Assembly: GCA_039796075.1 (NCBI GenBank)
Contig: JBDKKN010000134.1
Coordinates: 9,484-73,483 of the forward strand
Source: Planctomycetota bacterium
Lineage (GTDB): Bacteria; Planctomycetota; Phycisphaerae; Phycisphaerales; SM1A02
Length of the DNA: 64,000 nt
Direction of reading: 5' to 3'
Shown: in pieces, positions 802 to 61,563 of the stretch
Layout of the letters: every line of letters begins with the position of its first letter
How positions within the stretch are numbered: position 1 is the first letter of the stretch
Translations under genes and position numbers: made by a program
Notes under the pieces: generated by a model
Database searches by the model: none
Told to the model about the DNA's origin: nothing
Seen by the model: the letters and a program-made list of their open reading frames with translations, nothing else

Positions 802-867
802 TCCGAACCTCATGACCGATGCGTGCAGAGTCTTGTGCCACGCGATCTGCCTGCCTGCACCCCGTTG

Positions 868-47637: not shown

Positions 47638-47700
47638 GAGTTGCCATCGATTGGGAAGTTGTTGGCGTTTGGTTGTAAGCGCGGCGCGTATCGTGATCAC

Positions 47701-48968: not shown

Positions 48969-51900
48969 CTAGTTCGGGACCTTCACGAAACTCACGATGC
49001 GGGGTTGCTCGCCGGGGCGGTCGACGGATGAACGGTCGATGGTCATCATGTAACGGGAGTCATCCACAATCGACTCTGGGTCGGTGCCGTTCCATTGACC
49101 GGTGAGCGTGTCCTGCTTGATGGTGCGAATCCGCAGCCAAATGGTGAAGACATCGCTGCGCGTGGTGACGATGTTGGAAATACCGCGCAGCATCTGGTTC
49201 TGCTCAACGGCATCGCCTGAGGTCATGTCGTAGTGATAGGCCTTGCTTTCGACGAACTGTGTGCCCAACGAGTCGTTGGAAGGGTCATTGATTTCATTGG
49301 CGATCGTGTTTCGATCATCCGTGGCGGTTACCAACAAGTGCTTGTCGATGGCGGTTCGACCAGTGAGGGGATAGACCTGCGCTTGGCCCGCGGTGAGCGT
49401 TTGCGGAATGCCCTCGGTGCGGTACGCCAATGCTGTACCGCCGACCGATTGCGGACCGGAGCCAACGGATGAACCGCGGCCGGCGCCCCAGGATGGATCG
49501 TCCCACTTGGTTCGGTACGGATCAGTACCCGCGAAGCGGATCGACCAGCCTTCGGCTTGGTTCCAACTTGAACCAACCAACGCTGCAGCGTCAGCACTGT
49601 CTGCCACGTTGTTGCGGTTCACGTCGGCAACCTTGCCCTTGGCGATGTCTTGCACGTCGGGCGTACCGTTGCCGTCGGCATCGCTTGCGGCCGTAGGCGC
49701 AAACTCCGCGCCCTTGGTCAGCACTGCCAACTCACCGATACTGTCAAAGCCACGCTCGCTGCGCGTACCCGGCGCCCACTCGCGGTGGTTGGACGCATCC
49801 GGGAAATCAAGACCGCGGCTGTAGTAGCTCGGCATGTTCTGGAACAAGTTGTTGCTCAAGTCCGGAAGCACATTGCCCTTGTTGCGCCACAGTTCCATTG
49901 CCTCCGCCACGCGAACGCGCGGGGCTGCCACGCCGTAATCAAAGAGAATGGAATTCGGATTGCCCGGGCCAGGGTTCCCGCCGCCCATGTCGTACGGGGC
50001 GGCTTGCCACGCCAGTGGATCGCGTACTAAGCGACGCTTACTCAGTGCAGAACTGGCTGCATTGAGCGTGGCAGGATCGGAATCGGCAGTCTTCGTGATT
50101 GGGAAGTCATCGTCATAGACCAGGCGCATCATCTGCGGCATGGCGTGCAACACCTCAATGGGTGCGGTATTGATATTGATGAGTCCAGGCGTGAGCTTGC
50201 CTTCAAAGTTGCGAGCCAACCGCAGGCGTCGGTTCTCGGCGGTGGCGCGCTCATTGAAATCGATCACATTATCGGGGGCAGTAGTTGCAGTCCACGCGTC
50301 AAACGGTGCCGCACCACGATCATCAACAACGAATGCGTCCAGCAACGCTGCACCACCCGGCAGACGAGCGTTGAAGCCGATGCCGTTCTGTTGCGGAGGG
50401 GTCGTCGCGGTAATCGCACCCTCAATCGTCGGCGGCATAGTCTGAATGCCACTCAAGAGCGTTGGTCGACCGCCCGTTGGTGCAACGGTGTCGTATTGCG
50501 CCGGCTCAAGTTGCAGGCGGTTGTAGTGCTCCTGGTCCGAACCGTAACTAAGAACGCCGGTTGAAGTTGCAGGCTTGGGGAACTTGGGGAAGTACAGGTC
50601 AGCGGTCGAGTCCTGCGGCTGCGCAAGAATCTCCGCCAGCGTGGCGTAAGCACGGCCACTACCGGTGCGCTGCACCAGCGTGCCCCACAATGGAACATCC
50701 AAGATTTCCGCCGCCTGATCAAAGTCCGCATCCTTCTGGAAGAGACGGTAAGGCGCAGTGAAATTGCTGGGGTCGGCACCGTTGACGAACTTGCGATCAG
50801 AGACGCCCTTCTCGCCGTAGTTAAGTGTCATACCCGTTGGCGGCGTGGCGTTTGCCAGGAGCCACGCGGGGTACTTGTAGGTGCGCGTTTGGGTGCTTTC
50901 GGGAATGCGGGTCGGGAAGAAGGTCGGCTTGCCGCGCTTCAGTTCGCCCCAAATGTTGTGGTAGAGCGAAGAGATCCACAGGCTCTGCGGAGAGCCGGTC
51001 GCATCACCGTCGGGCAAGCTGGTGGCATTGGCAATGATCTCGCCCTTGCGGCCAACGCCCTCTTGCGTGCCACCAACATAGGTCTCACGACCCACGGACC
51101 CGCCATTGGGTGAACTGGATGCCATGACGCCGGTGGTACGCGCAAACGCGTAGCGCGGCGTGCGTTCATCCATGGTGATGACCCCAACACCGGGAGGTGC
51201 AGGCGTAATGCCGGCCTGTGTATCAAACAACCACTGCCGCGAGCCACGCGCCCAAGTGGTGAAGAAATCGCCAGTCTGCATGCGAATGCCGTCAATCGCC
51301 AGACTGCCCGAGCGACACACGATGGCTGGTGGCGGCGGGAGCGAGCCTCCAGAACCATCGATGTAGAGGCGATTGATCAAGTCCGTGACGCGCTGACCAG
51401 TCTGGCCATCAAGCGTTGGATCCAACTCATTCTCAAAGCGATCGACCACCGTCCAACTTGGCGTACCGCCGTTTGACGGATAGATGGCGCGGCGCAACTC
51501 AATGTAGGAATTTGTTGGCGGAGCACCACCCACTGAAGGTGATGGCTTCCAACGGTTCATGTCGCCACTGACATCAAGTCCAGCGAACACCGTAGGGGCG
51601 GTGGTTCGAGTGGCGTCAAAGTACAGCGTTCCGCCACGACGGTTGGCGTCGAAGTACTGCGTGCCGGTAGCGGATGATCCGCCCCACGCTGGCGAGAAGA
51701 TGGCGTTGATGTCCGGCTTGAAGAATTGACCAGGCTTGATATCGTTGGATGGATCGGCCTCGGTGGTGGTGATCGTTCCATCGCCGTCGGTGTCGATCGA
51801 CGCGCCGATATCGAGGAAGTCGAGCCATGCATCGCGCGGGAACGCGTCGCCGTTTGGGAACTTTTCTGGAAGGCTGAACACCAGCGCCGTACGCGGCTCC

Positions 51901-54900
51901 TCTGGCGTGCAGGGTCCAAGTTCCACATCCGGGCCGTAGGTGTTGCCACTACGACTTCCAGTCGGACCCGGAAGTCCGAAGAAGAATCGCTGCGGTGAGC
52001 CCGAAGCAGGATTGATGCGCAGCTCAAAATCCGCCAAGTTCACTGGCTCGTTGAACGGATTAGCAATCTGCGCAACAAACACCACTGCTGGCCAGGTGGC
52101 CGGATTGGCGGGGTCATACACCACGAAGTGCTCCCCGGCGCCGTTTGCAGTGCAACTTGGCAGCGCGAACGGATCGCTTGCATTCAGTGAGCAATTGTCA
52201 GGATCGGGGCAGCCCGGCAACGGATTGCCACCCGGAGGCCCCAGCACGGCATCAAGTTCAGCTTGGGTGACCTTGGACTTTGGATAGACGAAGGCGAGGA
52301 AGACTTCCTGAATGAAGGGCTGCTTCTCAACGCCAATGAAACCTCCATCGGTGATTCCGCTGGTGCCGAGCGCATCGGTTGGAACTGCAATCGCCTCAGT
52401 CGGATGCAACGGCTGATCGAGGTACATGGTGTTGGTGATACGACGCTTGCCGTCGCGATAGCACAACACGTTCGCCGAGAAGCTGGCGATCATCATCTTG
52501 GTGGCGGCCAACGACGCATTGGCATCAGTAGAGTTCTGACCAGGTCGACCGAGGTAACTCTGGCGAGTGCCTTCATCAATGAGCGCGCGGCGCATGACGC
52601 GTTGAAGGTCGAAATCAAACTTGCGATCCGCCTGCGTGATCTGCGTTGGAGTAGCGGCGACGCCCACGGTCGGCACGTCATTCGGGCGGCGTAAGTCAAT
52701 CTTGCGATTGTCCGTCAGGAAGCGCTGGCGCCCGCGTTCGAAGTCCTCAACATCCGCAACGCCGTCACCGTTGGCATCACGAATGGCAATCCCAAAGCCA
52801 CTGGAGGCAGCGGGAATCAACCCGGCTGCTGGGAACATGATGTTTGGGTGGTACGGCGCCAAGTCATCGGCCGTGGTCACTGCGCCGTCGCCGGTGACGT
52901 CGTCGGGGTTACCGTCCAAGTCAAAGTCCACGCCACGCTTCAGATAGGCAGGACGAACGCGCAAGGAATTACCAACAAAGTTCGTGTCAGGCGTACCAGC
53001 TGCCTGCAGGCTGTGGTCAACCACCGTCCACAGTCGCGGCGGCAACATCTCGTTGCGTGCACCGGAAATGGTAGTCATCATGCGCCGGTGGTCAAGCAAC
53101 AACTCTGCCCCACCGCGCGGCGCGAACGCGGCGCCCGTGCTCCATGCCGCCCGCGCGCGCCAGTCTTGAACGCGAACATCGTCCGGGTCAAAGAACCGCG
53201 CTGACTCCTCACGCGAACGCGTAGAGCGGAGGAATTCGCCAAACAGAATGTCGGTGGAGTACATCGATGCCGAACTATTCAAGGCATTCTCAATGCGGCT
53301 GACCGTCTGCGGACTGTTTTGCCCACTTGCGGCGCGCAACTCAATTTCATCGTCCGAGCCAAACGGGCTCAGGGTGACCAAGCGAGTAGCGGTGACCGGG
53401 TCAACCAGTTCGCCGCCGTTGGCCATGGCCTTGAAGTAACTCAGACGATCGGCCGCGCGCGAAAGGACGAAGGAGTCGCCGTACACCGCCGACGATCCAG
53501 TCAGACCAAAGTCCGCGGATGGATCAAAGAACGGAACCACGCTGTTGACGTTGCCAGCGGTGCCTTCTTGGGTCATACCGATGTCCCGCAGGAAACCGGT
53601 CTGGTAGGGATCGGCGGTGTTGCCACCCGCCGCTGCCAACTGCGTGCGCCGACCTTCCCAACGTTCCGGTGCCCAACCAACATCCACGCCGCCGGTTGGG
53701 CCAGCGGCATTGCTGGCTACGGCGTAGACCAGTTTGGCAGCGGTCTGCGAAGGCTGCGCCGCTGGCGCTGGAAGCAGCGTCTTGAAACTAAAGTTCACCC
53801 GGTATTCCGGGTCATTCTCCCGTGCATTGAAGAATCCAACGATGGGGTCACGGAAGCCCGCCGTGTTTCCGACTGTGCTTGTTTCGTCGTACGAATCACG
53901 GCGCGTGACCAGTGCCACGTCAGACGGCGTCAACCCATTGGTGCTCGCACGGTCCGACCGTGTGGCTGTGTTGACGTTGATGAGCGCGCTGTTATCCATG
54001 ATGCGCACCGCAATCAGCTGTCGAGTGCTGCGATCACTGGAACTGGGCGCTACAAACCAGAATGAATCCGTCCAGCCATCGCCGTCGGCGTCGGCAAGCG
54101 TGCGTCCAATCAGGTTGCGTGATGTTGGCACGTACGCCGTGCCGGAAAGAATCTGCTTGAACTCGTCTGATGGATCGCCAAACGCGCCAAGTTGCAGGAA
54201 GTTGGGGAGTGCGTCGAGACGGCGAATGGGCGTACTCACACCCGTGCCGTTCACCCCTTTGATCATCTGCGCGTGCGGTGGAACCGTGTTGAAATTAGTG
54301 ATGCCGACGTTGAACCATTGGCTGACGCGGTTCTGCCAGTCGGTGCTGTCAAGCACCAAGTATCCGCGTGCATCCTTGCCGGTGACCAACGGCTCGCGCG
54401 GCGCCACATACGGCAGCCACTGCTCATAGGGCGTACCCAGATTGAGTTCCCCTGCCGCCCAACGGTCGGCGGCAGCGGGAGTTGCGGCGGGAACCATGTG
54501 ATCCCAGTTCGATTCAACGTTGGAGATATTCCAGCACAAACGGAAACCGTTCTCTGCCGTTGGAATCCAACTCATGTGCGGCCAGTGACTGAAGCCCAAT
54601 CCTTCCGGCGAGAGAATCGGCGCGCCGTTGGAGAGCGCCAAGTTGCCCCAGTTGGCGTTGAACGGCAGCGGAACCTGTGTGTTCGGCGGCGCGGGCGCCA
54701 CGGGATTCTGCAACTGCGTGAGGAGCATGGCGCGCACCGGCTCCGTGCTTGCCAACCAACGCGTATCGCCAAAGCCGGGGTTCCCGATCGGATTACCTTC
54801 ACCGGTAATGTCGCCGTACCGCGCGGGCCAGTTGGTGAATGGGTTCACAGAGAACGGCGCAAAGTTGTAGCCGTCCAGGTAACCGTCACCACCGGCCACT

Positions 54901-55304
54901 GAGGTGAAATCCAGATTTGAAACCGAGTCAAAGTAGTCAACGCCGTAACGAATGGCGAGCGGTTCCGCGGGAAGACGCGGGAAGTCACTGCGCGCCATGA
55001 ACTCACCGAAGGCCGGCTGACCCGTCAGACCAGTGGCCTGGTTGGCAGCGATCTGTCCGGCAGCGGCAGTCATGCTCGAACTATCAATCCGCTTCACAAA
55101 GAGCGCATTCGCTACTTCTTGGGCAACGTCTGCGGCTACCGATTCAACACGTGCCTCTCGGCCTGTGGCCTTCTGCTGCGCGGCAGCCTGCGCGCGCCCA
55201 CTTTGCGCTCGCACCAAGAATGCGGTGGCAATGATGACCAGCAGCACCAAGATGGCGGTGACTAAGACAAGCGTGTTTCCGCGGGTCGTGGTGGTGGAGT
55301 TCAT
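48969..55304 (-). CDS. Giant (2111 aa) GspK-like minor pseudopilin / pseudopilus-tip protein
   Basis: The N-terminus MNSTTTTRGNTLVLVTAILVLLVIIATAFL is the GspK-type (RG.(A/T)L..VL hydrophobic helix, with no Glu at +5). GLININTAPIEVLHAMPQM at about residue 1706 (DNA ~50131-50187) is the GspK I-N-(I/V)-N-T-A helix-hairpin-helix-like signature. It is the last gene of the pseudopilin row. Multiple DxDxDG-type acidic loops occur: DADGDGWTD, DANGDGVADVED, DLDGNPDDVTGDG, DTDGDGTITTTE and SDADGNGTPDVQD. Confidence 0.7.
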   Translation of the reverse strand: MNSTTTTRGNTLVLVTAILVLLVIIATAFLVRAQSGRAQAAAQQKATGREARVESVAADVAQEVANALFVKRIDSSSMTAAAGQIAANQATGLTGQPAFGEFMARSDFPRLPAEPLAIRYGVDYFDSVSNLDFTSVAGGDGYLDGYNFAPFSVNPFTNWPARYGDITGEGNPIGNPGFGDTRWLASTEPVRAMLLTQLQNPVAPAPPNTQVPLPFNANWGNLALSNGAPILSPEGLGFSHWPHMSWIPTAENGFRLCWNISNVESNWDHMVPAATPAAADRWAAGELNLGTPYEQWLPYVAPREPLVTGKDARGYLVLDSTDWQNRVSQWFNVGITNFNTVPPHAQMIKGVNGTGVSTPIRRLDALPNFLQLGAFGDPSDEFKQILSGTAYVPTSRNLIGRTLADADGDGWTDSFWFVAPSSSDRSTRQLIAVRIMDNSALINVNTATRSDRASTNGLTPSDVALVTRRDSYDETSTVGNTAGFRDPIVGFFNARENDPEYRVNFSFKTLLPAPAAQPSQTAAKLVYAVASNAAGPTGGVDVGWAPERWEGRRTQLAAAGGNTADPYQTGFLRDIGMTQEGTAGNVNSVVPFFDPSADFGLTGSSAVYGDSFVLSRAADRLSYFKAMANGGELVDPVTATRLVTLSPFGSDDEIELRAASGQNSPQTVSRIENALNSSASMYSTDILFGEFLRSTRSREESARFFDPDDVRVQDWRARAAWSTGAAFAPRGGAELLLDHRRMMTTISGARNEMLPPRLWTVVDHSLQAAGTPDTNFVGNSLRVRPAYLKRGVDFDLDGNPDDVTGDGAVTTADDLAPYHPNIMFPAAGLIPAASSGFGIAIRDANGDGVADVEDFERGRQRFLTDNRKIDLRRPNDVPTVGVAATPTQITQADRKFDFDLQRVMRRALIDEGTRQSYLGRPGQNSTDANASLAATKMMIASFSANVLCYRDGKRRITNTMYLDQPLHPTEAIAVPTDALGTSGITDGGFIGVEKQPFIQEVFLAFVYPKSKVTQAELDAVLGPPGGNPLPGCPDPDNCSLNASDPFALPSCTANGAGEHFVVYDPANPATWPAVVFVAQIANPFNEPVNLADFELRINPASGSPQRFFFGLPGPTGSRSGNTYGPDVELGPCTPEEPRTALVFSLPEKFPNGDAFPRDAWLDFLDIGASIDTDGDGTITTTEADPSNDIKPGQFFKPDINAIFSPAWGGSSATGTQYFDANRRGGTLYFDATRTTAPTVFAGLDVSGDMNRWKPSPSVGGAPPTNSYIELRRAIYPSNGGTPSWTVVDRFENELDPTLDGQTGQRVTDLINRLYIDGSGGSLPPPPAIVCRSGSLAIDGIRMQTGDFFTTWARGSRQWLFDTQAGITPAPPGVGVITMDERTPRYAFARTTGVMASSSPNGGSVGRETYVGGTQEGVGRKGEIIANATSLPDGDATGSPQSLWISSLYHNIWGELKRGKPTFFPTRIPESTQTRTYKYPAWLLANATPPTGMTLNYGEKGVSDRKFVNGADPSNFTAPYRLFQKDADFDQAAEILDVPLWGTLVQRTGSGRAYATLAEILAQPQDSTADLYFPKFPKPATSTGVLSYGSDQEHYNRLQLEPAQYDTVAPTGGRPTLLSGIQTMPPTIEGAITATTPPQQNGIGFNARLPGGAALLDAFVVDDRGAAPFDAWTATTAPDNVIDFNERATAENRRLRLARNFEGKLTPGLININTAPIEVLHAMPQMMRLVYDDDFPITKTADSDPATLNAASSALSKRRLVRDPLAWQAAPYDMGGGNPGPGNPNSILFDYGVAAPRVRVAEAMELWRNKGNVLPDLSNNLFQNMPSYYSRGLDFPDASNHREWAPGTRSERGFDSIGELAVLTKGAEFAPTAASDADGNGTPDVQDIAKGKVADVNRNNVADSADAAALVGSSWNQAEGWSIRFAGTDPYRTKWDDPSWGAGRGSSVGSGPQSVGGTALAYRTEGIPQTLTAGQAQVYPLTGRTAIDKHLLVTATDDRNTIANEINDPSNDSLGTQFVESKAYHYDMTSGDAVEQNQMLRGISNIVTTRSDVFTIWLRIRTIKQDTLTGQWNGTDPESIVDDSRYMMTIDRSSVDRPGEQPRIVSFVKVPN

Positions 55305-55336
55305 GGGGTACTTTCGCGGAATGCGATCAGCAACAC

Positions 55337-57328
55337 TCAGTCCTTGCGACGCTTCGGAACATCAAGCACAAATTGAAACTCACGACCGCGGTCCAAGACC
55401 AGGCGCGGGTCATGGATAGTGGCGGTGACACGAATCTGTGTTGGCCACGGGGTGTAATCCTCGCGCGCAACAATGAATCCGTCCGGAGTCACGGTGTAAG
55501 CCTCGTCTTGGTTGAAACCAAACACGGCCGTGTAGACCCGGACGGGCACGCCTGCCCCGAACGGCGCCTGAATGGCAGCGGGCGAATTCGCCGCTGCGCC
55601 AGCGGTGCCTTCGATCGCCTGCGCAACGGCGCGCATGTGGAAATTGGTGCGAACCGTGGTGGTGGTGGATCCACCGTTCGGAACGTCGGGCATCACGGAA
55701 GTGTCCTGTGCGAGCGCTACGCCGAGTTGTTGCGACGCGGGAATGACTACCGTGCCATCGCCAGAATCCGGGAAGCCAAACCACGGCTGCTGACGCACGC
55801 GCTGGGTCGGGTCTTCGGCGTTTGCTGGCCATGTATCGGCAAACGGCTCATAGCCGCGCAGGAGGGTCGTGATAGTTGGCGTGACCGCATAGGTGGGCGC
55901 AGCATCAATCGAAAGCCGCACGGTAACTGGCAATACCGCGCCTGACGAGTCCGTCTGCCGGCCGGTCAGTGGCTCCCACGTCCAATCCACTTGGAAGGTG
56001 CTGCAATTAGTCACCAGTGTTGGCGAGGTGAGCATCTCGCTCTTGCGATCGGTGTTGCCGATTGATTTCTCCGAGCGTGGCCAGCCGAGGAGACCAAAGG
56101 TGTTACTGATGTTTGTTGTGGCGGGAATACCAAAGGTGCCGCGCATGATCCGATCTCGCTGCGTGGAGAAACCATTGATCGCACCCGGGTCCATGTTGTT
56201 GCCCACGGCGACAATCGCGCTACCACTCGGCCATGCCGGAGCCCCGGCGCCCACCGGCCATGAAATCGGTGCAATGCCGTTGCCAGGAGTGTTAAAGGGC
56301 ACGGACATCGAAGACAGCGTCACTGCGCCGCCTCCAACTGGAAGCGGCGTCTGCAGCCGAAGCGTGGGTGAAATTTCTCGGCGGACCTTGCCAAAGTCAC
56401 TGGCCGCAACATCAACCCACCCAGACTGCATGACTGGACTTGGAATGAGGTTGGTACTCAGGGAAATGCGATTGCGGTCGCGCATCTCTTGAAAGTACGA
56501 AGGGTCCGAACCAGCTGCGCCCGTGTACGAACGATCGCCAAAGATGGACGGCGCAGAACTTGGTCCTTGCGTTCCGGCCACGGTGAGATTGCTTGGTTCC
56601 GGGTAGTAGATGGGCCGACCGCCGTCATCGGAGAGGAGCACTGATTTACGCGCCAGCACCCACTGTCGCGCCTCAGGCTGGTTGGCAAGCACGCGCGGAC
56701 CCGCCGTCTGCGTGGTGGTTCCGAACTGCCAGCCAAGTTGGTAGGTCAGCGGGTCAAACCACGTCCACGGAACCACCTGCTTCACACCGCTCGGAGCGGG
56801 ACTGACGCCGGTGATGATCGGCTTGATGACCGAGTTCGGGTTTGATCCGGGTGGATTACTGGTTGGATCATTCGGCAGCGATGGAAACTGCACGCCGTGT
56901 CCGTAGTACACGCGCGCGCCGCGCGACTGCTGACCACCGCCGCCAGACACCAAGTCGCCGGGACCGGCCCAGCGCGCCGATGTTTCCGTACCCGCGGTGA
57001 AGAACACAATCTGATCGCAGCGCAAGATGGCATTGGCATCCAACTGCGGATTCAAGAGCGGTGCGTTGGCCGATGGGGAGATCACCTGATTGACATCATT
57101 GCGGACTGCCACGCACTGAATGGCCATGTAGCCGTCTCGGCACAGGCGCTCCAAATCGCGGCGCATCTGCTCTTCGATCACGGTGCCCTGCTGCAGCACA
57201 TCCGCGTTGGCTTCGCCGGTACTGGAGACCTTGCTCGCCGTATTAAAGATCTTGCTAGTGGCAATGATCACCGCCAGCATGACCACCACGGCGATCAGAA
57301 GTTCAACGACTGTAAATGCGCGACGCAT
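55337..57328 (-). CDS. Prepilin-type N-terminal methylation-domain protein, GspJ position (663 aa)
   Basis: MRRAFTVVELLIAVVVMLAVIIATS is a class III signal ((G/A)|FT..E with Glu+5). It lies between the I-position and K-like genes. The GspJ assignment is positional only. Confidence 0.6.
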   Translation of the reverse strand: MRRAFTVVELLIAVVVMLAVIIATSKIFNTASKVSSTGEANADVLQQGTVIEEQMRRDLERLCRDGYMAIQCVAVRNDVNQVISPSANAPLLNPQLDANAILRCDQIVFFTAGTETSARWAGPGDLVSGGGGQQSRGARVYYGHGVQFPSLPNDPTSNPPGSNPNSVIKPIITGVSPAPSGVKQVVPWTWFDPLTYQLGWQFGTTTQTAGPRVLANQPEARQWVLARKSVLLSDDGGRPIYYPEPSNLTVAGTQGPSSAPSIFGDRSYTGAAGSDPSYFQEMRDRNRISLSTNLIPSPVMQSGWVDVAASDFGKVRREISPTLRLQTPLPVGGGAVTLSSMSVPFNTPGNGIAPISWPVGAGAPAWPSGSAIVAVGNNMDPGAINGFSTQRDRIMRGTFGIPATTNISNTFGLLGWPRSEKSIGNTDRKSEMLTSPTLVTNCSTFQVDWTWEPLTGRQTDSSGAVLPVTVRLSIDAAPTYAVTPTITTLLRGYEPFADTWPANAEDPTQRVRQQPWFGFPDSGDGTVVIPASQQLGVALAQDTSVMPDVPNGGSTTTTVRTNFHMRAVAQAIEGTAGAAANSPAAIQAPFGAGVPVRVYTAVFGFNQDEAYTVTPDGFIVAREDYTPWPTQIRVTATIHDPRLVLDRGREFQFVLDVPKRRKD

Positions 57329-58563
57329 CAGAGCTCCCTCACCGTGGCATAGACCGGAACCAATTGCGTTCCATTGGCGTCAATGATGGCTGGGACGTAG
57401 TGCATGGTGCGAACGCCCATTGGGACATTGTCGGTGGTGCCACTGGCCGGCAGCTCGTAGTCGTCGTACACCTGCGCATTCGGAACGCGCGGGACCGGCG
57501 CGCTGAAACGGACTTGCAGCGGATCAATGGAATTACGCCGGCCCTGTGCCACACGGTGCACGTTGCTGTTGTTGTCAATGATCCACTGCCCCGGCAACTG
57601 CCATTGTTCGCTCACTTGCGGAATCGCAGCGGCGGCGAAATCTGTAGCGGCAATTCCTTGATTCGCGCCGAAGAATCCAGTGGTGAACGGTGCTTGGCCA
57701 GTCAGCGAAAGTGTTGGTGGCTGCTCCCACCCGGTGCGCACCTGCAGTCCAATCGGTGCACCTGTTGTTCCAGGCGCGCCCCCAATACCTGACTTGGGAA
57801 CGCGCCGGTACGGAACCGGCGGAAGACTGGGGTAACTCGCACCGGCGACCACCGTCGGCAGGCTCGGCGCACCGTTCGAAGGCGATGAGTAACTCCGCAC
57901 CGCACCGCCGACGCCGATGACGCGGTACACAAAGATGGCCACCTGAATGCGCCCGCCCATGCGGCGGAACATGCAGTCCCATGAGTACGTGGGCGGAGTG
58001 AACGTGGTGGCGCCTTCCGGTACGGATGGCCACCAACGCTCGCGTTGAGTGACGACGATCGGCGGCGCCAGGCTGGTGCGTGAGGAGTTGTACGGCGCAC
58101 CCCACAGTTTCAGATTGCCCCCACCCGTGCGGGTGACGCCTTGATTGGGAAACTCACAGAACTCTTGCGCGCTGGAGCCCGCGTTCTGAGCGAGCGTCGA
58201 GAAGATATCGATGGCACCCACGTCATCAATGGTGGTACCGCCTTGGTTGCTGCGGATCACGCCGGGGCGGATCCAACTCCAATCGCCAGCGCTGGGCCGG
58301 GATACGTAGCTGCCATTGGAGATGGACTGCGCCAAGAGGTTGGTGACGCCAAACTCTTCAAAGGTGCCAAAGTCCTCTGACTTCACACGACTGCGCAGCA
58401 GCCCCAGCGCCTGCTCCGCCACCACGGGTCCAAGCTGATCATCCGCGGTCTGTTGCTGCTGAGCAATGCCCGCAGGAAAGAGCGCCGACACGGAAATGAT
58501 TCCGATCGCCAGAATGAAGACGGATAGCAACAACTCGATGAGCGAGAATGCACGGCGCATCAC
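57328..58563 (-). CDS. Prepilin-type N-terminal methylation-domain protein, GspI position (411 aa)
   Basis: MMRRAFSLIELLLSVFILAIGIISVSALF. The A|FSLIE plus LLSVFILAIG pattern resembles the GspI/PilV type. The stop overlaps the next start (TGATG). Confidence 0.6.
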   Translation of the reverse strand: MMRRAFSLIELLLSVFILAIGIISVSALFPAGIAQQQQTADDQLGPVVAEQALGLLRSRVKSEDFGTFEEFGVTNLLAQSISNGSYVSRPSAGDWSWIRPGVIRSNQGGTTIDDVGAIDIFSTLAQNAGSSAQEFCEFPNQGVTRTGGGNLKLWGAPYNSSRTSLAPPIVVTQRERWWPSVPEGATTFTPPTYSWDCMFRRMGGRIQVAIFVYRVIGVGGAVRSYSSPSNGAPSLPTVVAGASYPSLPPVPYRRVPKSGIGGAPGTTGAPIGLQVRTGWEQPPTLSLTGQAPFTTGFFGANQGIAATDFAAAAIPQVSEQWQLPGQWIIDNNSNVHRVAQGRRNSIDPLQVRFSAPVPRVPNAQVYDDYELPASGTTDNVPMGVRTMHYVPAIIDANGTQLVPVYATVREL

Positions 58564-59597
58564 TTGGTGCCGATCCCGGGAACGCCCGTATATCGATTAA
58601 AGGTGATGCGGTCAGACTGCTCTTCAATGAACAGTGATTGATCACGAATGCGCGGCGGTGGGCTGCCGTTACCACCGATGGCTGTGCCCTTCCACGTGCT
58701 GGAGTTGAAACGATCACGCGCCTCGGCATCGTTAAAGACGGCCAGATACGGAACGTAATCGACTAGCGGCTCATCCAACGGTTCGTCGTAGATGAAATAG
58801 TCAACGTTGACCCCCGCGCCGCCATAGGCGCTCGTGGTGCCACGCTCCGGGAATCCATTGCCGTCGTAGTCAACAAACGACTTCACGTAGGCGTTCTGGT
58901 TACCGCCTGCGGCAGTCACCACTTCAAGCACCTGTTGCGGATTGCGCGAGAGCACGCGTCCGTCCGGACCAAACAACACACCGATGGCCCAGCCGAGTTC
59001 GGTGCGTGCCAAGTCCGGCGTGAATGTTGGTGGCGTCACCGCCATATTGGTAGTGCCTGCAAAGCGCGGCTGCGTGCGCCACTGACGATCGTTCTGACCG
59101 ACCGCTGTGTCAGTGACAAATCCGAAGGCCGGACCGGCAATCAAGACACCGGCTGGCAAGTCCCGTGTTGGAACACCTGGAACGGGAACGAATCGATCGG
59201 CGAACACATCGTCCACCATGAGCTCGGCACCGTAGGTGTTGGGTGTGGGAAGCGGCGTGCTAGCGGTGACCACCTCGCCGGTCCAACGAGCAGTGACAAT
59301 CTGTACCACTTGCGGCTCACGCGGCAATGCGCGGGACTGCCGACTTGGCGCCACGCGGAAGGTGACCATGACGTACGCGTTGTCTCGGATAGCGATGGCG
59401 CGCGCTGAGCCAAGGGATGCCACCACACCATTGGTGGCATTCGCCAACTTGGCATCGCGGGTGACCTTGCCGACGCTGATGGCCGTCAGCACTGCCAAGA
59501 TCATCATGATGCCCATGACCACCAACAGCTCCAGGAGCGTGAAGGCGGGCGCTCGGGTGAGCCGTCGCACGGAGGATGAATTGCGGGCGCTGGACAT
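58560..59597 (-). CDS. Prepilin-type N-terminal methylation-domain protein, GspH/FimT-like (345 aa)
   Basis: Start ATG 59597 gives MSSARNSSSVRRLTRAPAFTLLELLVVMGIMMILAVLTAISVG. It is followed by LANATNGVVASLGSARAIAIRDNAYVMVTF, resembling the GspH/FimT L...ARSEAI.R...V.L segment. The upstream 45 aa of the ORF are rejected. Confidence 0.6.
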   Translation of the reverse strand: MSSARNSSSVRRLTRAPAFTLLELLVVMGIMMILAVLTAISVGKVTRDAKLANATNGVVASLGSARAIAIRDNAYVMVTFRVAPSRQSRALPREPQVVQIVTARWTGEVVTASTPLPTPNTYGAELMVDDVFADRFVPVPGVPTRDLPAGVLIAGPAFGFVTDTAVGQNDRQWRTQPRFAGTTNMAVTPPTFTPDLARTELGWAIGVLFGPDGRVLSRNPQQVLEVVTAAGGNQNAYVKSFVDYDGNGFPERGTTSAYGGAGVNVDYFIYDEPLDEPLVDYVPYLAVFNDAEARDRFNSSTWKGTAIGGNGSPPPRIRDQSLFIEEQSDRITFNRYTGVPGIGTK

Positions 59598-59602
59598 GGG
59601 CG

Positions 59603-60448
59603 TCAGTTTGGGGGATCCAATTCGTACAGGTAGATGTTGTCGGCAGCGGCGGTGTTCTGGATAGTGGTGGAATCCGGGGTGGATTCGCCGGGCACTCCAA
59701 AGAGACCGTCGGGACCAGCGGACACCAGACATATACGGCGATTGGTGCAGACTCCAAGGAGATTCTCAGCAGGAGTTCGCACAGTTCCGTCAGAATCGGG
59801 AAGCGATGAAGTCGGTTCCGCCCCGTAACGCCACGCCCGACCGGGGAACACGAACGCAATGCGTCCGCCCCACGTATCCACCAGCTCCGATCGGGTCGAA
59901 TCCTTGGTGTTGGCGGTGGACTTGGCCGAGGGCGCGTACAAGACCGACGGCGTGCCGGACAAGATGTTGGTGGCGGGATAACTGGAGGTATTCGCCTCCG
60001 CGCGCAACATGCTCGGCGGGATACCCGCCAGCATCGGACGAATCGATTCCAGTTGCGCGAGCAGATTGACGGTGAATACTCCCGCGCCGCGTGCGCGCGT
60101 GTAAATCAACTTGTTGCCGGAATTATTAGGTGCTGCCGGCGTTCCTGGCTCACGAACATCAAAGACCTCAAGCGTGGCTCCGGATGGAAAGATCTCCGTG
60201 GTCGGCGCCGTCAGCGAGTTGAACGCCCCGTTGTACGTCACTGGTCGACCGGTCTGCCCTTCCCATTCGGTGAACGCGCTCTCCATGATGGTCATGGCGC
60301 TCTCCACCTGCGAACGCTCCGCGCGCCGCAACAGCGCGGAACCAACGCCCAACACCAAGGACGCCAGCACCAAGATGATGCTGATCACCACCATGATCTC
60401 AATCAGGGTGAATGCGCGTCCCGCATGGCGTGAGCGACGGCGACTCAT
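59603..60448 (-). CDS. GspG-like pseudopilin, second copy (281 aa)
   Basis: GRAFTLIEIMVVISIILVLASLVLG is the GspG-type N-terminus. The C-terminal LVSAGPDGLFGVPG...AADNIY resembles the GspG S.G.DG..G....DI tail. Confidence 0.65.
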   Translation of the reverse strand: MSRRRSRHAGRAFTLIEIMVVISIILVLASLVLGVGSALLRRAERSQVESAMTIMESAFTEWEGQTGRPVTYNGAFNSLTAPTTEIFPSGATLEVFDVREPGTPAAPNNSGNKLIYTRARGAGVFTVNLLAQLESIRPMLAGIPPSMLRAEANTSSYPATNILSGTPSVLYAPSAKSTANTKDSTRSELVDTWGGRIAFVFPGRAWRYGAEPTSSLPDSDGTVRTPAENLLGVCTNRRICLVSAGPDGLFGVPGESTPDSTTIQNTAAADNIYLYELDPPN

Positions 60449-61563
60449 GGGCCAAACCTCACAATGTTGTCCTCGTTGTATCCCTCGGTATCAGCGCGGA
60501 TCGTTGGATTCCAACGTTGGTCCGGGCCAAAGGAGAGCAGCGCAAACTCCGATGCCATGGCAGCGCGGCTTGCACCGGAGTCATTATTTGCATCCGGCAT
60601 GGCGTCAACATCTTCGCCTGGGCTGAACCGCTGCGGACGCAGTGCAACAATGTCCGCCAACGACCAGGTGCGATCAGTGGAGCGCGGGTCGCCGTTCAGG
60701 TAGCCGCGTCGATAGAAGAGGACTGGCTTGCCAAAGAAGTCCAAGAGGCACTTGGGTGCCAGATCAAAGTTGTTGATCTCGCCCGGCTTGGCAACAATCG
60801 GCGTGCCATCCGTCTGAAATCCGGTGATGCCGCCAATCTCGCTGTCTGCCTTCACTTCCAAGTACGGTCCAAGCGACTTGCCGCGCAGAAACGCACTGGT
60901 TGAATCTGCGTTGCCGGTGGCAGGCGCGGTCGAAGCCAAGTTGCGCGAACCAAAGACGCCCTTCCCCTGTGTTCCAGTACGTGGATTGAGGAGCGAGCCC
61001 CATCCACCATCGGAGCCAGGGTTGCGAATTCCAAGAGCGGGTTGCTCGCGGTAGCCAGGAGTGTTGGTATTGGTAGGAAGCGCGCCGGTCCCTTCCATGA
61101 TGACTCCATAGCCATCCTGTGAGCGATCGCCAAGCCCCAGTAAGTACTCGGGAATGGTGGTCCCCGAGCACCACTTCTGCAGGTTCTGCCGCTGCGTGGT
61201 GGACCACGTTCCGTACGCGGGACCACCGTTCTGCGTTCCGGCAAGCGATGGCGGATCCAACATGTCGCGGCACCAACCAAGCTGTCCAAACGCCGTACCA
61301 GAGACGCCGGAACCCACTTGCGAAGGCACGCCAAGAATAGGAGGCATGTATCCGGTTTCAGCACGGAAGCGAGTCAGCCCCGCCACGATGGAGTTCATCA
61401 GGAACTCCGTGTTCGCAATGCGAGCACGCCGCGCGCCGTAACCAAGGCCCACAATCAGCGTGGAGATCACGCCGATCACAATGCCAAGCACCACCAAGAT
61501 CTCCACCACGGTAAAGCCGCGGCGGATGACGGAACGCTGCAACGGACGGGCGAACTCCATCAC
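60445..61563 (-). CDS. GspG-like major pseudopilin, extended (372 aa)
   Basis: RRGFTVVEILVVLGIVIGVISTLIVGL (G|FT..E), followed by ARIANTEFLMNSIVAGLTRFRAETGYMPP, which is like GspG A...I..L..AL..Y....G.YP. The C-terminus LLSFGPDQ...NEDNIV is GspG-like. It lies directly after gspF with a 4-nt overlap. Confidence 0.7.
   Translation of the reverse strand: MMEFARPLQRSVIRRGFTVVEILVVLGIVIGVISTLIVGLGYGARRARIANTEFLMNSIVAGLTRFRAETGYMPPILGVPSQVGSGVSGTAFGQLGWCRDMLDPPSLAGTQNGGPAYGTWSTTQRQNLQKWCSGTTIPEYLLGLGDRSQDGYGVIMEGTGALPTNTNTPGYREQPALGIRNPGSDGGWGSLLNPRTGTQGKGVFGSRNLASTAPATGNADSTSAFLRGKSLGPYLEVKADSEIGGITGFQTDGTPIVAKPGEINNFDLAPKCLLDFFGKPVLFYRRGYLNGDPRSTDRTWSLADIVALRPQRFSPGEDVDAMPDANNDSGASRAAMASEFALLSFGPDQRWNPTIRADTEGYNEDNIVRFGP

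What the first reader, a model, noticed from the sequence alone, without database searches (positions are those of the whole stretch)
48969..55304. 2111-aa GspK-like protein: ~1650 aa inserted between the pseudopilin helix and the GspK INxNTA signature
Seen in sequence:
- A single uninterrupted 6.3-kb ORF.
- A GspK-type N-terminal helix without Glu5.
- The motif GLININTAPIEVLHAMPQM at about residue 1706.
- About 390 further residues after that motif.
The intervening region contains at least five DxDxDG-like acidic loops, a calcium-binding or thrombospondin/dockerin-like flavour: DADGDGWTD, DANGDGVADVED, DLDGNPDDVTGDG, DTDGDGTITTTE and SDADGNGTPDVQD. It also has many Gly/Pro/Thr/Asn-rich stretches consistent with beta-rich extracellular domains.
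Established knowledge: canonical GspK is about 325 aa. It caps the pseudopilus and carries a calcium site and an alpha-domain insertion.
Inference: the insertion point of the normal alpha-domain may have been expanded into a multi-domain extracellular module. That would make this the distal, substrate- or surface-contacting element of the fibre.
Basis: partly seen in the sequence, partly recalled or inferred. Interest (0 to 1): 0.65.

Follow-up and report, generated by a model that had tools for sequence, protein, structure and literature searches.

The report
Giant GspK-like pilus tip protein
This 2111-residue protein from a freshwater Phycisphaerales (Planctomycetota) bacterium is a seven-fold enlarged relative of GspK, the small protein that caps type II secretion and type IV pilus fibres, so it probably puts about 1700 residues of unknown domains on the tip of a retractile pilus.

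Summary
The ORF is real: minus strand, 48969-55304, 2111 aa, 227 kDa. It is conserved end to end in more than 200 homologues of 1650-2500 aa.

It is the last gene of a PilB-PilT-PilB-PilC operon that also holds five pilin-like genes. It is the only pilin-like gene there without Glu5.

Direct Pfam and PDB searches do not call it GspK (T2SSK E = 0.04-0.11). Profile-profile comparison does:
- Four core pieces align end to end with the GspK family: aa 1-66, 396-470, 1694-1779 and 2024-2111 (probability 95%, P = 3e-8).
- An unbiased scan places the GspK parts in the same order.
- A syntenic family of about 850 aa in Sedimentisphaerales bridges the two (99% to the giant, 96% to GspK).

The motif at 1707 is the second one, a ComEA-like helix-hairpin-helix.

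The extra mass is not one insert. It is many expansions spread along the GspK scaffold. They fold confidently in the model but match nothing solved, except one lamin-tail-like Ig domain.

Only one of the five acidic loops is conserved across the family.

Verdict: a new, extreme variant of a known kind, a modular GspK-class tip pilin. Its ligand is unknown.

The parts
48969..55304 (-). Whole gene: a 2111-aa GspK-class giant minor pilin (stop codon 48969-48971).
   Evidence: Full-length homologues.
55107..55304 (-). aa 1-66: a 9-residue leader (MNSTTTTRG), a putative prepilin-peptidase site G|N, and a hydrophobic alpha1 helix without Glu5.
   Evidence: Sequence. AF2 predicts a helix at 10-66. 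hhalign to the GspK N-terminus gives P = 9e-6 and 2.9e-5.
54120..55106 (-). aa 67-395: a family-specific expansion between alpha1 and beta1. GspK has about 25 aa here. Conserved motifs are TNWP, NPxGNPGFGDxRWLxSTEP, FSHWPHxSW and PYEQWLP.
   Evidence: Conservation. No family or fold match.
53955..54119 (-). aa 396-450: the pilin core. It holds the invariant acidic loop DADGDG(W/F)TDS, strands beta1 (414-418) and beta2 (427-437), and the first GspK signature DNSALINVNTA.
   Evidence: invariant D405, D407, G408, D409, G410, T412, D413, W416. AF2 pLDDT is about 90. hhalign places it at GspK 75-109. Match to the 850-aa family: P = 2.5e-14.
52758..53954 (-). aa 451-849: expansion 2. AF2 confidence is mostly low. 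It contains the conserved PFGxxDExELR block (aa 639-674), shared with the 850-aa orthologues, and the semi-conserved dockerin/EF-hand-like loop at 843.
   Evidence: P = 8.4e-7 for 639-674. Dockerin_1 or EF-hand hits appear in some members.
52275..52757 (-). aa 850-1010: three long helices plus the AS..AN....RD / G.EKQPFI.E motifs. This is a tentative remnant of the first SAM-like (T2SSK_1st) domain.
   Evidence: AF2 helices at 852-865, 886-908 and 925-950. The link is weak but colinear: giant 936-1006 to intermediates 397-445, P = 0.005; intermediates 379-484 to GspK 124-222, P = 0.001. There is no direct match to GspK.
51765..52187 (-). aa 1040-1180: a beta-sandwich, probably a lamin-tail-like Ig domain.
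   Evidence: Foldseek's best hits for the middle model are lamin Ig domains (E = 0.1, probability 0.94, rmsd 1.7 over 68 columns). Pfam LTD gives weak hits at the colinear position in 850-1390-aa relatives. Colinear anchor. The placement inside the model is inferred, not read from coordinates.
50226..51764 (-). aa 1181-1693: a beta-rich region with a confident model (pLDDT mostly 80-95) and no sequence or fold match. It is the largest giant-specific part.
50025..50225 (-). aa 1694-1760: the second GspK signature TPGLININTAPxEVLxAMPxM, which starts a ComEA-like helix-hairpin-helix (second SAM-like, PF03934) domain. The rest of that domain appears split off to about 1794-1812 and 1848-1862.
   Evidence: Pfam T2SSK E = 0.04-0.11 at 1709-1723, aligned to profile positions 1-15. 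hhalign to GspK 212-232: P = 4.2e-6 and 2.1e-4. To the intermediates' HHH_3 region: P = 4.2e-7.
49236..50024 (-). aa 1761-2023: expansion 3. It is variable and partly low in confidence, and it holds the clade-specific loop at 1875.
48972..49235 (-). aa 2024-2111: the C-terminal pilin core. It has a helix (2032-2043) and strands at 2052-2064, 2079-2090 and 2102-2109. The last strand is supplied in cis, as in GspK. Motif: TTRSDVFT...DDSRYxMxVDRSxVxxPG.
   Evidence: AF2 pLDDT 88-91. hhalign to GspK 274-324. Match to the 850-aa family: P = 4.5e-17.
55337..57328 (-). 663-aa pilin-like protein with Glu5 (MRRAFTVVELL...). It lies immediately upstream and is a candidate GspJ/PilW-position partner.
   Evidence: weak hits: Verru_Chthon cassette C E = 0.021, GspJ E = 0.08-0.16. 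Its orthologue carries N_methyl.
57328..58563 (-). 411-aa pilin-like protein with Glu5 and a PilV-like N-terminus.
58560..59597 (-). 345-aa pilin-like protein with Glu5 (the ORF list extends it to 59732). It is GspH / Verru_Chthon cassette D-like.
   Evidence: TIGR02596 E = 4.5e-11. One search gives the JGI gene call.
59603..60448 (-). 281-aa prepilin with N_methyl and Glu5.
60445..61563 (-). 372-aa pilin-like protein with Glu5.
61560..62861 (-). PilC/GspF platform protein.
62869..63999 (-). PilB/GspE assembly ATPase, cut by the window end. On related contigs a PilT-family ATPase and a second PilB lie further upstream.

Best explanation
The gene encodes the apical (GspK/PilK-class) minor pilin of a type IV pilus-like, probably retractile, filament system of a Phycisphaerales bacterium.

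Shown:
- It is homologous to GspK through a split core. The core consists of the N-terminal Glu5-less helix, the beta1-beta2 hairpin with its acidic loop and first NxN motif, the second helix-hairpin-helix motif, and the three C-terminal strands.
- It occupies the last position of a PilB-PilT-PilB-PilC operon that also holds five Glu5 pilin genes.
- Its orthologues in Sedimentisphaerales are about 850 aa and sit in the same operon slot.

Inferred:
- The protein enters the inner membrane by its N-terminal helix and is processed by a prepilin peptidase after Gly9.
- Because it lacks Glu5, it is the first subunit of the tip initiation complex, formed with the upstream minor pilins.
- It completes its own pilin sheet with its C-terminal strands, in cis as in GspK. 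This fits the absence of a PilY1/PilC gene in the window.
- It stays at the distal end when the filament grows.
- The roughly 1700 extra residues are many expansions of the loops and of the alpha-domain of the GspK scaffold. They form a large, mostly beta, acidic head with at least one conserved calcium-type loop, a lamin-tail-like Ig domain and a ComEA-like helix-hairpin-helix domain.
- This head is what the pilus presents to the outside, that is, the ligand-binding or adhesive end. PilT then pulls it back.
- The ligand is unknown.
For: Reality of the gene:
- ORF and conservation.

Context:
- Window genes.
- The same operon in a 31 %-identical homologue.
- The upstream extension with PilB, PilT and PilB.
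- PilT family at 453 bits against a cut-off of 319.

GspK homology:
- Mini-core against a 36-sequence GspK profile: probability 95.2 %, P = 2.7e-8, 250 columns, end to end.
- Without the N-terminal helix the score is 39.8 (P = 3.7e-5). The null distribution has mean 14.3, sd 2.4 and maximum 19.9 over 150 draws.
- In an unbiased scan the GspK parts land at 5-37, 429-448, 1706-1726 and 2042-2060, in order.
- PF03934 is the commonest weak Pfam hit, in 9 of 24 members.

Bridge:
- Relatives of 820-1170 aa carry HHH_3 (E = 2e-9) and T2SSK (E = 2e-4), and GspK NF037980 at E = 2e-4 to 7e-4.
- 17 of the 120 listed proteins have PF03934 on record.
- These relatives match GspK with probability 96.1 %, P = 3.6e-9.
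- They match the giant with 98.8 % and 98.3 %, P = 4.5e-17 and 2.5e-14.
- With a permissive alignment setting (low mact) they also align end to end with the giant (99.8 %), though not every aligned block is reliable.
- They occupy the same operon position.

Structure:
- The chimera aa 1-500 + 1640-2111 gives pTM 0.74. It shows a 57-residue N-terminal helix, and the five core strands have pLDDT about 90.
- Foldseek rank 1 is GspK 3CI0_K and rank 3 is the XcpX chain of the pseudopilus model.

Literature:
- PilK/GspK homologues invariably lack Glu5 and are apical.
- GspK supplies its C-terminal strand in cis.
- Systems without PilY1 have K-type pilins with their own extra strand.
- CpaL tolerates a 470-aa middle region between the pilin domain and the C-terminal strand (PMC13533445).
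Against: - No curated model calls the protein GspK. Pfam T2SSK gives E = 0.04-0.11 over 15 residues only. T2SSK_1st gives nothing. NCBIfam GspK gives E = 0.048 on the mini-core.
- PDB sequence searches are empty.
- The Foldseek matches to GspK are not significant (E = 0.98).
- I chose the mini-core segments by eye before scoring. The null control and the unbiased scan mitigate this but do not remove it.
- I could not see model coordinates or PAE, so packing of the N and C parts into one sheet is inferred from confidence values only.
- No secretin, PilMNOP or prepilin peptidase gene lies in the window or in the related loci examined.
- It is unclear how a head of about 200 kDa would cross an outer-membrane secretin.
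- Nothing identifies a ligand.
Confidence: 0.65

Rival explanations
1. The architecture is the same, but the function is DNA capture. The filament would be a competence-type pilus, and the tip protein would bind extracellular DNA through its ComEA-like helix-hairpin-helix domain, as proposed for ComZ of Thermus. PilT retraction would then bring the DNA in.
For: - HHH_3 is significant in the 850-aa orthologues (E = 2e-9), and ComEA models hit them (TIGR01259 E = 4.6e-6; TIGR00426 E = 1.6e-6).
- The orthologue profile matches the solved ComEA structure 8dss at E = 3.3e-4.
- IMG names some of them 'DNA uptake protein ComE-like'.
- PilT is present.
Against: - Ordinary T2SS GspK proteins also carry PF12836 hits, so the fold is a family trait and not evidence of DNA binding.
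- In the giant the domain is split by loops and scores below every threshold.
- The GIG-type hairpin is not evident.
- The protein is acidic (pI 4.9).
- No ComEC or ComEA neighbours are in the window.
Confidence: 0.12
2. The protein caps a short periplasmic pseudopilus, T2SS-like, rather than a surface pilus. The large head would work inside the enlarged planctomycetal periplasm as a piston face or substrate adaptor and would never cross the outer membrane.
For: - The closest characterised relative, GspK, works this way.
- The ATPase and platform proteins score almost as well with the GspE and GspF models as with PilB and PilC.
- No secretin lies nearby.
- A head of about 200 kDa looks too big for a secretin channel (inference).
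Against: - A PilT-family retraction ATPase scoring above cut-off sits in the operon. T2SS lack it.
- There are two PilB paralogues.
- No GspC, GspL, GspM or GspD is in the window or the related loci examined.
Confidence: 0.12
3. The protein is not a filament subunit. It would be a signal-anchored, inner-membrane-tethered giant surface or periplasmic protein that merely shares motifs with GspK (hydrophobic N-terminus, helix-hairpin-helix, acidic loops).
For: No curated family hit. Foldseek is not significant.
Against: - Colinear four-part profile match with controls.
- A transitive bridge.
- A fixed position after five pilin genes in operons conserved from 31 % to 100 % identity.
- Gly at -1 and absence of Glu5 are conserved.
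Confidence: 0.06
4. The ORF is an assembly or frameshift artefact that fuses several genes.
For: None found.
Against: - Proteins of the same length occur in many independent assemblies and sources. The 90 %-identity cluster of the window's own protein holds 68 member sequences.
- Orthologues of 1650-2500 aa align over the full length.
- 88 further representatives of 1406-3219 aa were found.
- Conserved motifs are spread along the whole length.
Confidence: 0.01

Closest known systems
GspK / XcpX, the T2SS minor pseudopilin (PF21687 + PF03934; PDB 3CI0, XcpVWX)
   Same: - A Glu5-less N-terminal helix with Gly at -1.
- A beta1-beta2 hairpin ending in a D-x-x-x-x-(F/I)-N-(L/V)-N motif.
- A second xINxN(T) motif that starts a helix-hairpin-helix or SAM-like domain.
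- C-terminal strands supplied in cis.
- Acidic, calcium-type sites. GspK has two canonical calcium sites and XcpX a third, formed by D65, D78 and E82 (PMC6211770). The invariant loop here aligns to roughly that part of GspK.
- Last gene of the pilin cluster.
   Different: - 2111 aa against about 325 aa.
- The first SAM-like domain is not detectable directly.
- Large expansions also lie before beta1 and after the second motif.
- The partner machine has PilT and no GspC, L, M or D nearby.
- Curated models do not reach threshold.
850-aa 'helix-hairpin-helix domain-containing' proteins of Sedimentisphaerales and other Phycisphaerae (uncharacterised; for example P0367, P0431)
   Same: - The same operon slot.
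- The same anchor motifs along the whole length: RGSALIL N-terminus, ADADGDGxxDSxW, DNGxMLNVNT, PFDxSDELELR, GRININTAP, VTVRSDVFT.
   Different: - 2.5 times smaller.
- The giant adds roughly 330 aa after the helix, about 400 aa at 1290-1700, and many smaller expansions.
- The helix-hairpin-helix domain is intact and significant in the small form.
Modular and insertion-bearing minor pilins: ComZ (Thermus), CpaL (Caulobacter Tad), CofB/TcpB, PilB/PilC of S. sanguinis
   Same: - A pilin module carries extra modules for display at the filament tip.
- In ComZ the extra domain is inserted into the pilin sheet.
- In CpaL it lies between the pilin domain and the C-terminal strand (PMC6561018, PMC13533445, PMC8179133).
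   Different: - No sequence or fold similarity of the extra parts was detected.
- Those proteins are about 500-600 aa. The largest modular pilin in the InterPro survey was 860 aa (PMC8179133).
- Here the additions are dispersed rather than one grafted module.
Verru_Chthon cassette proteins A-D (TIGR02600, 02598, 02599, 02596) of Verrucomicrobia
   Same: - A cassette of one very large protein (a 1296-position model) plus pilin-like proteins, in another PVC phylum.
- Weak hits: the giant's C-terminal core to the end of protein A (E = 0.012), the 663-aa protein to C (E = 0.021), and the 345-aa protein to D (E = 4.5e-11).
   Different: - All hits are far below the curated cut-offs.
- No paper in the searched library mentions the cassette.
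- That proteins B, C and D are pilin-like is from my memory of the TIGRFAMs description, apart from the D and C hits seen here.
PilY1 / PilC tip adhesins
   Same: A large calcium-binding tip-associated protein of type IV pili. Functionally it is the nearest analogue.
   Different: - PilY1 is not a pilin. It has a beta-propeller and donates only a C-terminal strand to PilK/PilX.
- No PilY1 family hit and no propeller fold match were found here.

Membership tests
GspK / T2SSK minor pseudopilin | A prepilin-type N-terminus with Gly at -1, a hydrophobic alpha1 helix and no Glu at +5. | tested here: met
   RG|NTLVLVTAILV is conserved in the family. hhalign to the GspK N-terminus gives P = 9e-6.
GspK / T2SSK minor pseudopilin | A match to Pfam PF03934 (T2SSK, second SAM-like domain) at the gathering score. 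| tested here: not met
   13-15 bits against a cut-off of 24.2 (E = 0.04-0.11), covering only aa 1709-1723. 9 of 24 members hit weakly. Profile-profile comparison at the same place gives P = 4.2e-6.
GspK / T2SSK minor pseudopilin | A match to Pfam PF21687 (T2SSK_1st, first SAM-like domain). | tested here: not met
   No hit. hhalign with the SAM1 part gives P = 0.3. Only a weak transitive trace exists through the 850-aa family.
GspK / T2SSK minor pseudopilin | NCBIfam NF037980 T2SS_GspK at its cut-off. | tested here: not met
   13.2 bits against 130 on the mini-core. No hit on the full protein.
GspK / T2SSK minor pseudopilin | Colinear homology of the whole pilin core to the family profile. | tested here: met
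   Probability 95.2 %, P = 2.7e-8, aligned 3-312 to 1-324 of 327. Null control. Unbiased scan. Bridge at 96.1 % and 98.8 %.
GspK / T2SSK minor pseudopilin | The three-dimensional fold: alpha1 plus an antiparallel sheet interrupted after beta2, with the last strand in cis. | tested here: inconclusive
   The AF2 secondary structure and pLDDT fit. Foldseek rank 1 is 3CI0_K, but at E = 0.98 over 81 columns. No coordinates or PAE were available.
GspK / T2SSK minor pseudopilin | Part of a T2SS, with GspC, D, L, M and no retraction ATPase. | tested here: not met
   PilT family at 453 bits against 319. No GspC, D, L or M is in the window or the related loci.
GspK / T2SSK minor pseudopilin | Calcium bound in the pseudopilin domain. 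| not testable with these tools
   The invariant DxDGDGxTD loop at 405-413 is suggestive only.
PilK / PilX-class apical minor pilin of type IV pili (the GspK homologues in the sense of PMC13533445) | The only pilin of the cluster without Glu5, encoded with I/J/H-type minor pilins next to PilB and PilC. | tested here: met
   The five upstream pilin-like proteins all have Glu5 and the giant does not. Operon.
PilK / PilX-class apical minor pilin of type IV pili | A small pilin that needs the C-terminal strand of a separate PilC/PilY1 protein. | tested here: not met
   It has its own C-terminal strands. No PilY1-like gene was found among the ORFs scanned in the window.
Modular pilins (a concept, PMC8179133) | A pilin module plus extra, non-pilin modules in one polypeptide. 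| tested here: met
   The core covers about 315 aa. About 1800 aa are additional and fold with pLDDT 80-95 over aa 755-1615.
Verru_Chthon cassette protein A (TIGR02600) | A match at the curated cut-off (332 bits). | tested here: not met
   13.5 bits, E = 0.012, C-terminal 40 residues only.
PilY1 / PilC adhesin | A C-terminal beta-propeller domain (IPR008707). | tested here: not met
   No Pfam hit in 24 members. No propeller among the Foldseek matches.

The most novel reading that the evidence does not exclude
This operon, in which every pilin is oversized (281-663 aa) and the cap is 227 kDa, may encode an unusually thick planctomycetal fibre. Such fibres, about 12 nm and dextran-binding, have been seen on other Planctomycetes, and their genes are unknown (PMC5394234). 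On this reading the giant GspK-like head is the macromolecule-catching end. PilT would reel it in, through an outer-membrane conduit other than a classical secretin, to feed polymers into the periplasm.
Probability: 0.1. Interest if true: 0.8.

Novelty: new variant of a known kind. Interest (0 to 1): 0.55.

Why it matters
GspK-class proteins prime and cap every type IV filament. How much cargo such a cap can carry, and where it can be inserted, is a current question (CpaL, ComZ, the GspK alpha-domain; PMC13533445).

This family shows that the scaffold tolerates a roughly seven-fold enlargement here, and about ten-fold at the extreme. Complete-looking members are 1406-3219 aa. In all, 1459 representatives match at E <= 1e-3.

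A graded natural series exists: about 325 aa in GspK, about 850 aa in Sedimentisphaerales, and 1650-3200 aa in Phycisphaerales. This series could be used to map which loops accept insertions.

It also flags a widespread, unannotated pilus system in abundant freshwater and marine Phycisphaerae. All database entries read 'hypothetical protein'.

About 500-900 residues are confidently modelled yet match no solved structure.

It poses a concrete mechanistic puzzle: how does a 200-kDa tip leave the cell?

Tried and rejected
- Direct family searches on the whole protein, on its halves and on 24 homologues (Pfam, NCBIfam) gave nothing at threshold.
- PDB sequence searches with the full-length profile and with the mini-core profile returned only chance hits.
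- A tblastn search of the C-terminal 471 aa against plasmids found nothing.
- Internal repeats: a permissive blastp of the protein against itself found none. The size is therefore not due to tandem domain repeats.
- Foldseek of both models against the PDB, and of the middle model against viral structures, gave no significant match.
I used the window's own mini-core as a single query instead.
- A literature search for the Verru_Chthon cassette returned no papers.
- No terminator-like site lies between the convergent gene ends at 48936 and 48969.
- I considered a PilY1 fusion and rejected it: there is no propeller.
- I considered thrombospondin or dockerin repeats as the main building block and rejected that. 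Only isolated loops occur, four of the five are not family-wide, and Dockerin_1 hits only 4 of 24 members.

Full report
1. THE OBSERVATION

The ORF exists exactly at 48969-55304, but on the minus strand. It has an ATG start and encodes 2111 codons plus a stop. The plus strand of the same interval is full of stops.

The protein is 227 kDa with pI 4.9. It has a single strongly hydrophobic segment, at residues 13-31.

The motif GLININTAPIEVLHAMPQM starts at residue 1707, and 386 residues follow it. The five DxDxDG-type loops are at 405, 793, 843, 1171 and 1875. GC and GC3 match the neighbouring genes.

A homology search found 232 proteins at E <= 1e-5:
- The 120 best listed are 1647-2528 aa.
- Most align over the full length, at 96 % down to about 30 % identity.
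- They come from JGI, ENA, NCBI and Logan assemblies.
- Where named, they come from Phycisphaerales, Phycisphaerae or Planctomycetota MAGs.
- Every one is called 'hypothetical' and none has a Pfam domain on record.

Conservation runs along the whole length, with four hot spots:
- the N-terminal helix;
- aa 401-450 (RTLxDxDGDGxTDSxWF...DNSxxxNxNxATRS);
- aa 1702-1728 (TPGLxNxNTAxxEVxxAxPxM);
- aa 2044-2100 (TTRSDVFT...DDSRYxMxVDRSxVxxPG).

The ORF is therefore a real, single, conserved gene. It is not a fusion artefact.

2. GENOMIC CONTEXT

The genes upstream on the same strand, often with overlapping stops and starts, are:
- PilB/GspE (62869-63999, cut by the window end);
- PilC/GspF (61560-62861);
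- five pilin-like proteins of 372, 281, 345-390, 411 and 663 aa.

All five pilin-like proteins have the (G/A)F(T/S)hhE prepilin motif with Glu5. The giant protein is the last gene and the only one without Glu5: after RG comes N-T-L-V-L.

The next gene downstream is convergent and encodes a transglutaminase-like protein.

A contig that encodes an identical PilC shows what lies beyond the window end: a further PilB-like ATPase (593 aa) and a 383-aa ATPase. The 383-aa ATPase scores 453 bits on NCBIfam's PilT/PilU model, whose cut-off is 319.

The same gene order occurs around a 31 %-identical homologue of 1832 aa: PilB, PilT, PilB, PilC, five pilin-like genes, then the giant.

No secretin, PilMNOP, GspC/L/M, PilY1 or prepilin peptidase is in the window or in these loci. 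The machine is therefore type IV pilus-like, with a retraction ATPase. It is not a classical T2SS.

3. IS IT GspK-LIKE?

Direct searches say no.
- Pfam and NCBIfam give nothing at E <= 0.01.
- The C-terminal piece alone gives PF03934 (T2SSK) at E = 0.04, over 15 residues only.
- In 24 family members PF03934 is the commonest weak hit (9 of 24) but is never significant.
- HMM searches of the PDB are empty.

The E. coli K-12 reference. I took E. coli K-12 GspK from an annotated genome. It has two xNxN motifs:
- DAQHCFNLNAL at 96-109. This ends beta2 and starts PF21687.
- ELSINLNML at 213-221. This starts PF03934.

The giant has both in the same order. DNSALINVNTA lies at 437-447, directly after an invariant DADGDG(W/F)TDSFWF loop and strand. 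ININTA lies at 1709-1714.

Profile-profile tests. I built a 36-sequence GspK alignment and compared profiles with hhalign.
- The four conserved pieces of the giant family (aa 1-66, 396-470, 1694-1779, 2024-2111; 315 columns) align end to end with GspK. Columns 3-312 align to 1-324 of 327. Probability is 95.2 % and P = 2.7e-8.
- Without the generic hydrophobic helix the score is 39.8 (P = 3.7e-5). 150 random colinear triples of equally long segments from the rest of the same protein score 14.3 +/- 2.4, with a maximum of 19.9.
- I had chosen the pieces by eye, so I also scanned the separate GspK parts over the whole 2111-column profile. Their best hits fall in the right order:
  - 5-37 (P = 3e-5);
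  - 429-448 (P = 0.049);
  - 1706-1726 (P = 2e-4);
  - 2042-2060 (P = 0.039).
- The first SAM-like domain finds nothing (P = 0.3).

4. A BRIDGING FAMILY

A scan of GTDB species genomes with the two most conserved peptides found the family mostly in Phycisphaerales. The closest genomes are MAGs whose isolate names point to lake samples (for example 'ME...' bins and Baikal-deep) and UBA966. Weaker relatives occur in Sedimentisphaerales and in MAGs labelled Pirellulales or Isosphaeraceae.

These weaker relatives are 820-1170 aa.
- They start with RGSALILAVVLTSLLA, which is very GspK-like.
- They contain ADADGDGVxDSxW, DNGxMLNVNT, GRININTAP and VTVRSDVFT.
- They carry a significant HHH_3 domain (E = 2e-9).
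- They carry near-threshold T2SSK (E = 2e-4, 22 bits) and GspK NF037980 (E = 2e-4 to 7e-4).
- They have weak lamin-tail-domain hits in the middle.

More than 1000 clusters of this 850-aa family exist, and 17 of the 120 listed have PF03934 on record.

A 51-sequence profile of this family gives:
- against GspK: probability 96.1 %, P = 3.6e-9, over 160 columns (SAM2 plus the C-terminal strands), with colinear secondary hits;
- against the giant: 98.8 % (P = 4.5e-17) at the C-terminus and 98.3 % (P = 2.5e-14) at the loop/beta1-beta2/NxN block.

With a permissive alignment setting the two families align end to end (99.8 %). Block-wise top hits give nine colinear anchors.

The 845-aa protein sits in the same operon slot: PilB, PilT, PilB, PilC, six pilin-like genes, then the 845-aa protein.

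The giant is therefore the Phycisphaerales orthologue of an 850-aa GspK-like pilin, which in turn is a homologue of GspK.

5. STRUCTURE MODELS

The chimera. A chimera of aa 1-500 + 1640-2111, modelled with a 54-row alignment, gave pTM 0.74 and mean pLDDT 68. It shows:
- a 57-residue N-terminal helix;
- strands at 414-418 and 427-437;
- after a helix at 2032-2043, strands at 2052-2064, 2079-2090 and 2102-2109.

All of these have pLDDT about 90. This is the secondary-structure order of a GspK pilin domain whose sheet is interrupted after beta2.

Foldseek against 350,542 PDB chains ranks GspK (3CI0_K) first and the XcpX chain of the pseudopilus model third. The E-value is 0.98, so this is only suggestive. 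I had no access to coordinates or PAE.

The middle. The model of aa 486-1680 gave pTM 0.76 and mean pLDDT 77. Residues about 755-1615 are at 80-95.
- Three long helices lie at 852-950.
- After them the model is mostly beta structure.
- The only structural resemblance is a lamin-tail Ig-like domain (E = 0.1, probability 0.94, rmsd 1.7 A over 68 columns).
- Nothing turned up in the viral library.

6. ANATOMY (native residues)

- 1-9: leader.
- 10-66: alpha1.
- 67-395: expansion 1. GspK has about 25 aa here.
- 396-450: acidic loop, beta1-beta2 and the first signature.
- 451-849: expansion 2, with the shared PFGxxDExELR block.
- 850-1010: helical, a possible remnant of the first SAM-like domain. 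The evidence is weak.
- About 1040-1180: a lamin-tail-like sandwich.
- 1181-1693: a beta-rich part with no match anywhere. It is the most giant-specific part.
- 1694-1760: the second signature. It starts a ComEA-like helix-hairpin-helix whose later helices seem displaced to about 1794-1812 and 1848-1862.
- 1761-2023: expansion 3.
- 2024-2111: the C-terminal helix and three strands.

The enlargement is thus distributed over many loops, not one insert. There are no internal repeats.

Of the five acidic loops:
- only 405-413 is invariant;
- 843 is semi-conserved and accounts for the Dockerin_1 and EF-hand hits in some members;
- 793, 1171 and 1875 occur only in the closest clade.

7. SIZE RANGE

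A phmmer search of 1.84 billion representatives with the mini-core found 1459 proteins at E <= 1e-3, 349 at <= 1e-10 and 129 at <= 1e-30.
- Among the 150 listed, nearly all hits that match all four core pieces are 1406-3219 aa.
- The one exception is a 3-piece hit of 1264 aa that looks complete.
- Hits with 1-2 pieces are short and look like fragments from contig ends.

8. MECHANISM

Shown: the homology, the operon position and the absence of Glu5.

From the literature:
- PilK/GspK homologues invariably lack Glu5 and are the most apical subunit.
- GspK supplies in cis the C-terminal strand that PilC/PilY1 supplies in trans.
- Systems without PilY1 have K-type pilins with their own strand.
- CpaL carries 470 dispensable residues between its pilin domain and that strand (PMC13533445).
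- Modular pilins are thought to be tip-exposed adhesins (PMC8179133).
- ComZ has a domain inserted into the pilin sheet (PMC6561018).

Inferred:
- The giant protein nucleates the tip complex with the upstream minor pilins.
- It stays at the distal end.
- It presents about 1700 residues of acidic, partly calcium-stabilised, mostly beta domains as the contact surface.
- PilT retracts the fibre.

Rivals:
- a DNA-receptor role through the ComEA-like domain; note that ordinary GspKs also hit HHH_3;
- a periplasmic pseudopilus cap;
- a non-filament anchored protein;
- an artefact.

The open problem is export. No secretin lies nearby, and the head looks too large for one.

9. NOVELTY

The kind is known: a GspK-class apical minor pilin, a modular pilin. 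This variant is not.
- No curated model or paper describes it.
- All database entries are 'hypothetical' or, for the 850-aa form, 'helix-hairpin-helix domain-containing'.
- Its size exceeds the largest modular pilin reported in the InterPro survey (860 aa; PMC8179133) by 2.5 to 3.7 times.

The nearest curated analogue is the unstudied Verru_Chthon cassette of Verrucomicrobia. The giant, the 663-aa protein and the 345-aa protein give sub-threshold hits to its proteins A, C and D. No literature on the cassette was found.

Noticed in passing
window 55337-61563 (minus strand): All five Glu5 pilin-like genes upstream of the giant are unusually large for pilins: 281, 345-390, 372, 411 and 663 aa, against about 130-200 aa in T2SS or T4aP. 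Several have overlapping stop and start codons (57328; 58560-58563; 60445-60448; 61560-61563), which suggests translational coupling. Which of them is the major subunit, if any, is unknown.
   Followed up: partly
window 58560-59732 (minus strand): The mechanical ORF gives 390 aa. The prepilin motif starts at residue 63, and the JGI gene call on the same sequence starts 45 codons later (345 aa, window 58560-59597). The longer N-terminus is probably not translated.
   Followed up: partly
L004:1385-6335 and L001:1-3113 (beyond the window end at 64000): The operon continues upstream with a second PilB-like ATPase and a PilT-family ATPase (453 bits against a cut-off of 319). Two assembly ATPases plus one retraction ATPase in a single operon is unusual. 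The arrangement is conserved in Phycisphaerales and Sedimentisphaerales (L085).
   Followed up: partly
window 55337-57328, 58560-59597, 48972-49235: Sub-threshold similarity to Verru_Chthon cassette proteins C (E = 0.021), D (E = 4.5e-11) and A (E = 0.012). This hints that the verrucomicrobial cassettes, uncharacterised as far as I could find, are a related pilus-tip system of the PVC superphylum.
   Followed up: partly
window 47641-48936 (+): A transglutaminase-core protein (431 aa) converges on the giant gene, with only 32 nt between the two stop codons. No terminator-like hairpin was found there.
   Followed up: partly
window 49300-55450 (+ strand): Many long antisense ORFs (up to 248 aa, for example 53319-54065) overlap the giant gene. 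I take them to be the usual by-product of 60 % GC with GC3 of 69 %, not genes.
   Followed up: no
window 7549-8964 (-): A 471-aa protein with six RCC1 repeats (RCC1_2, E = 4e-45).
   Followed up: no
window 823-4496 (+): Two adjacent M14 zinc-carboxypeptidase genes in tandem. Two M28 peptidases lie elsewhere in the window (32816-33922 on the + strand; 42964-44751 on the - strand).
   Followed up: no
window 35248-42440 (+): A run of complex I / Mrp-type membrane subunits: an Oxidored_q3 protein, then three Proton_antipo_M proteins, the first of them 934 aa. This is ordinary housekeeping context and shows the region is chromosomal.
   Followed up: no
L068:9482-10873: One relative on a 1.6-Mb Planctomycetota contig has an open frame of only 464 aa. 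It has the same RGSALILAVVL N-terminus and the DGDG block but no Pfam hit. It could be a minimal form or a truncated gene.
   Followed up: no
L009, L016, L021, L024, L034: Some genome records that carry close relatives are labelled Chitinophaga, Singulisphaera, Bacteroidia or Armatimonadia. On the sequence evidence these short contigs look like Phycisphaerae DNA, so mis-binning or mislabelling in the MAGs is likely.
   Followed up: no
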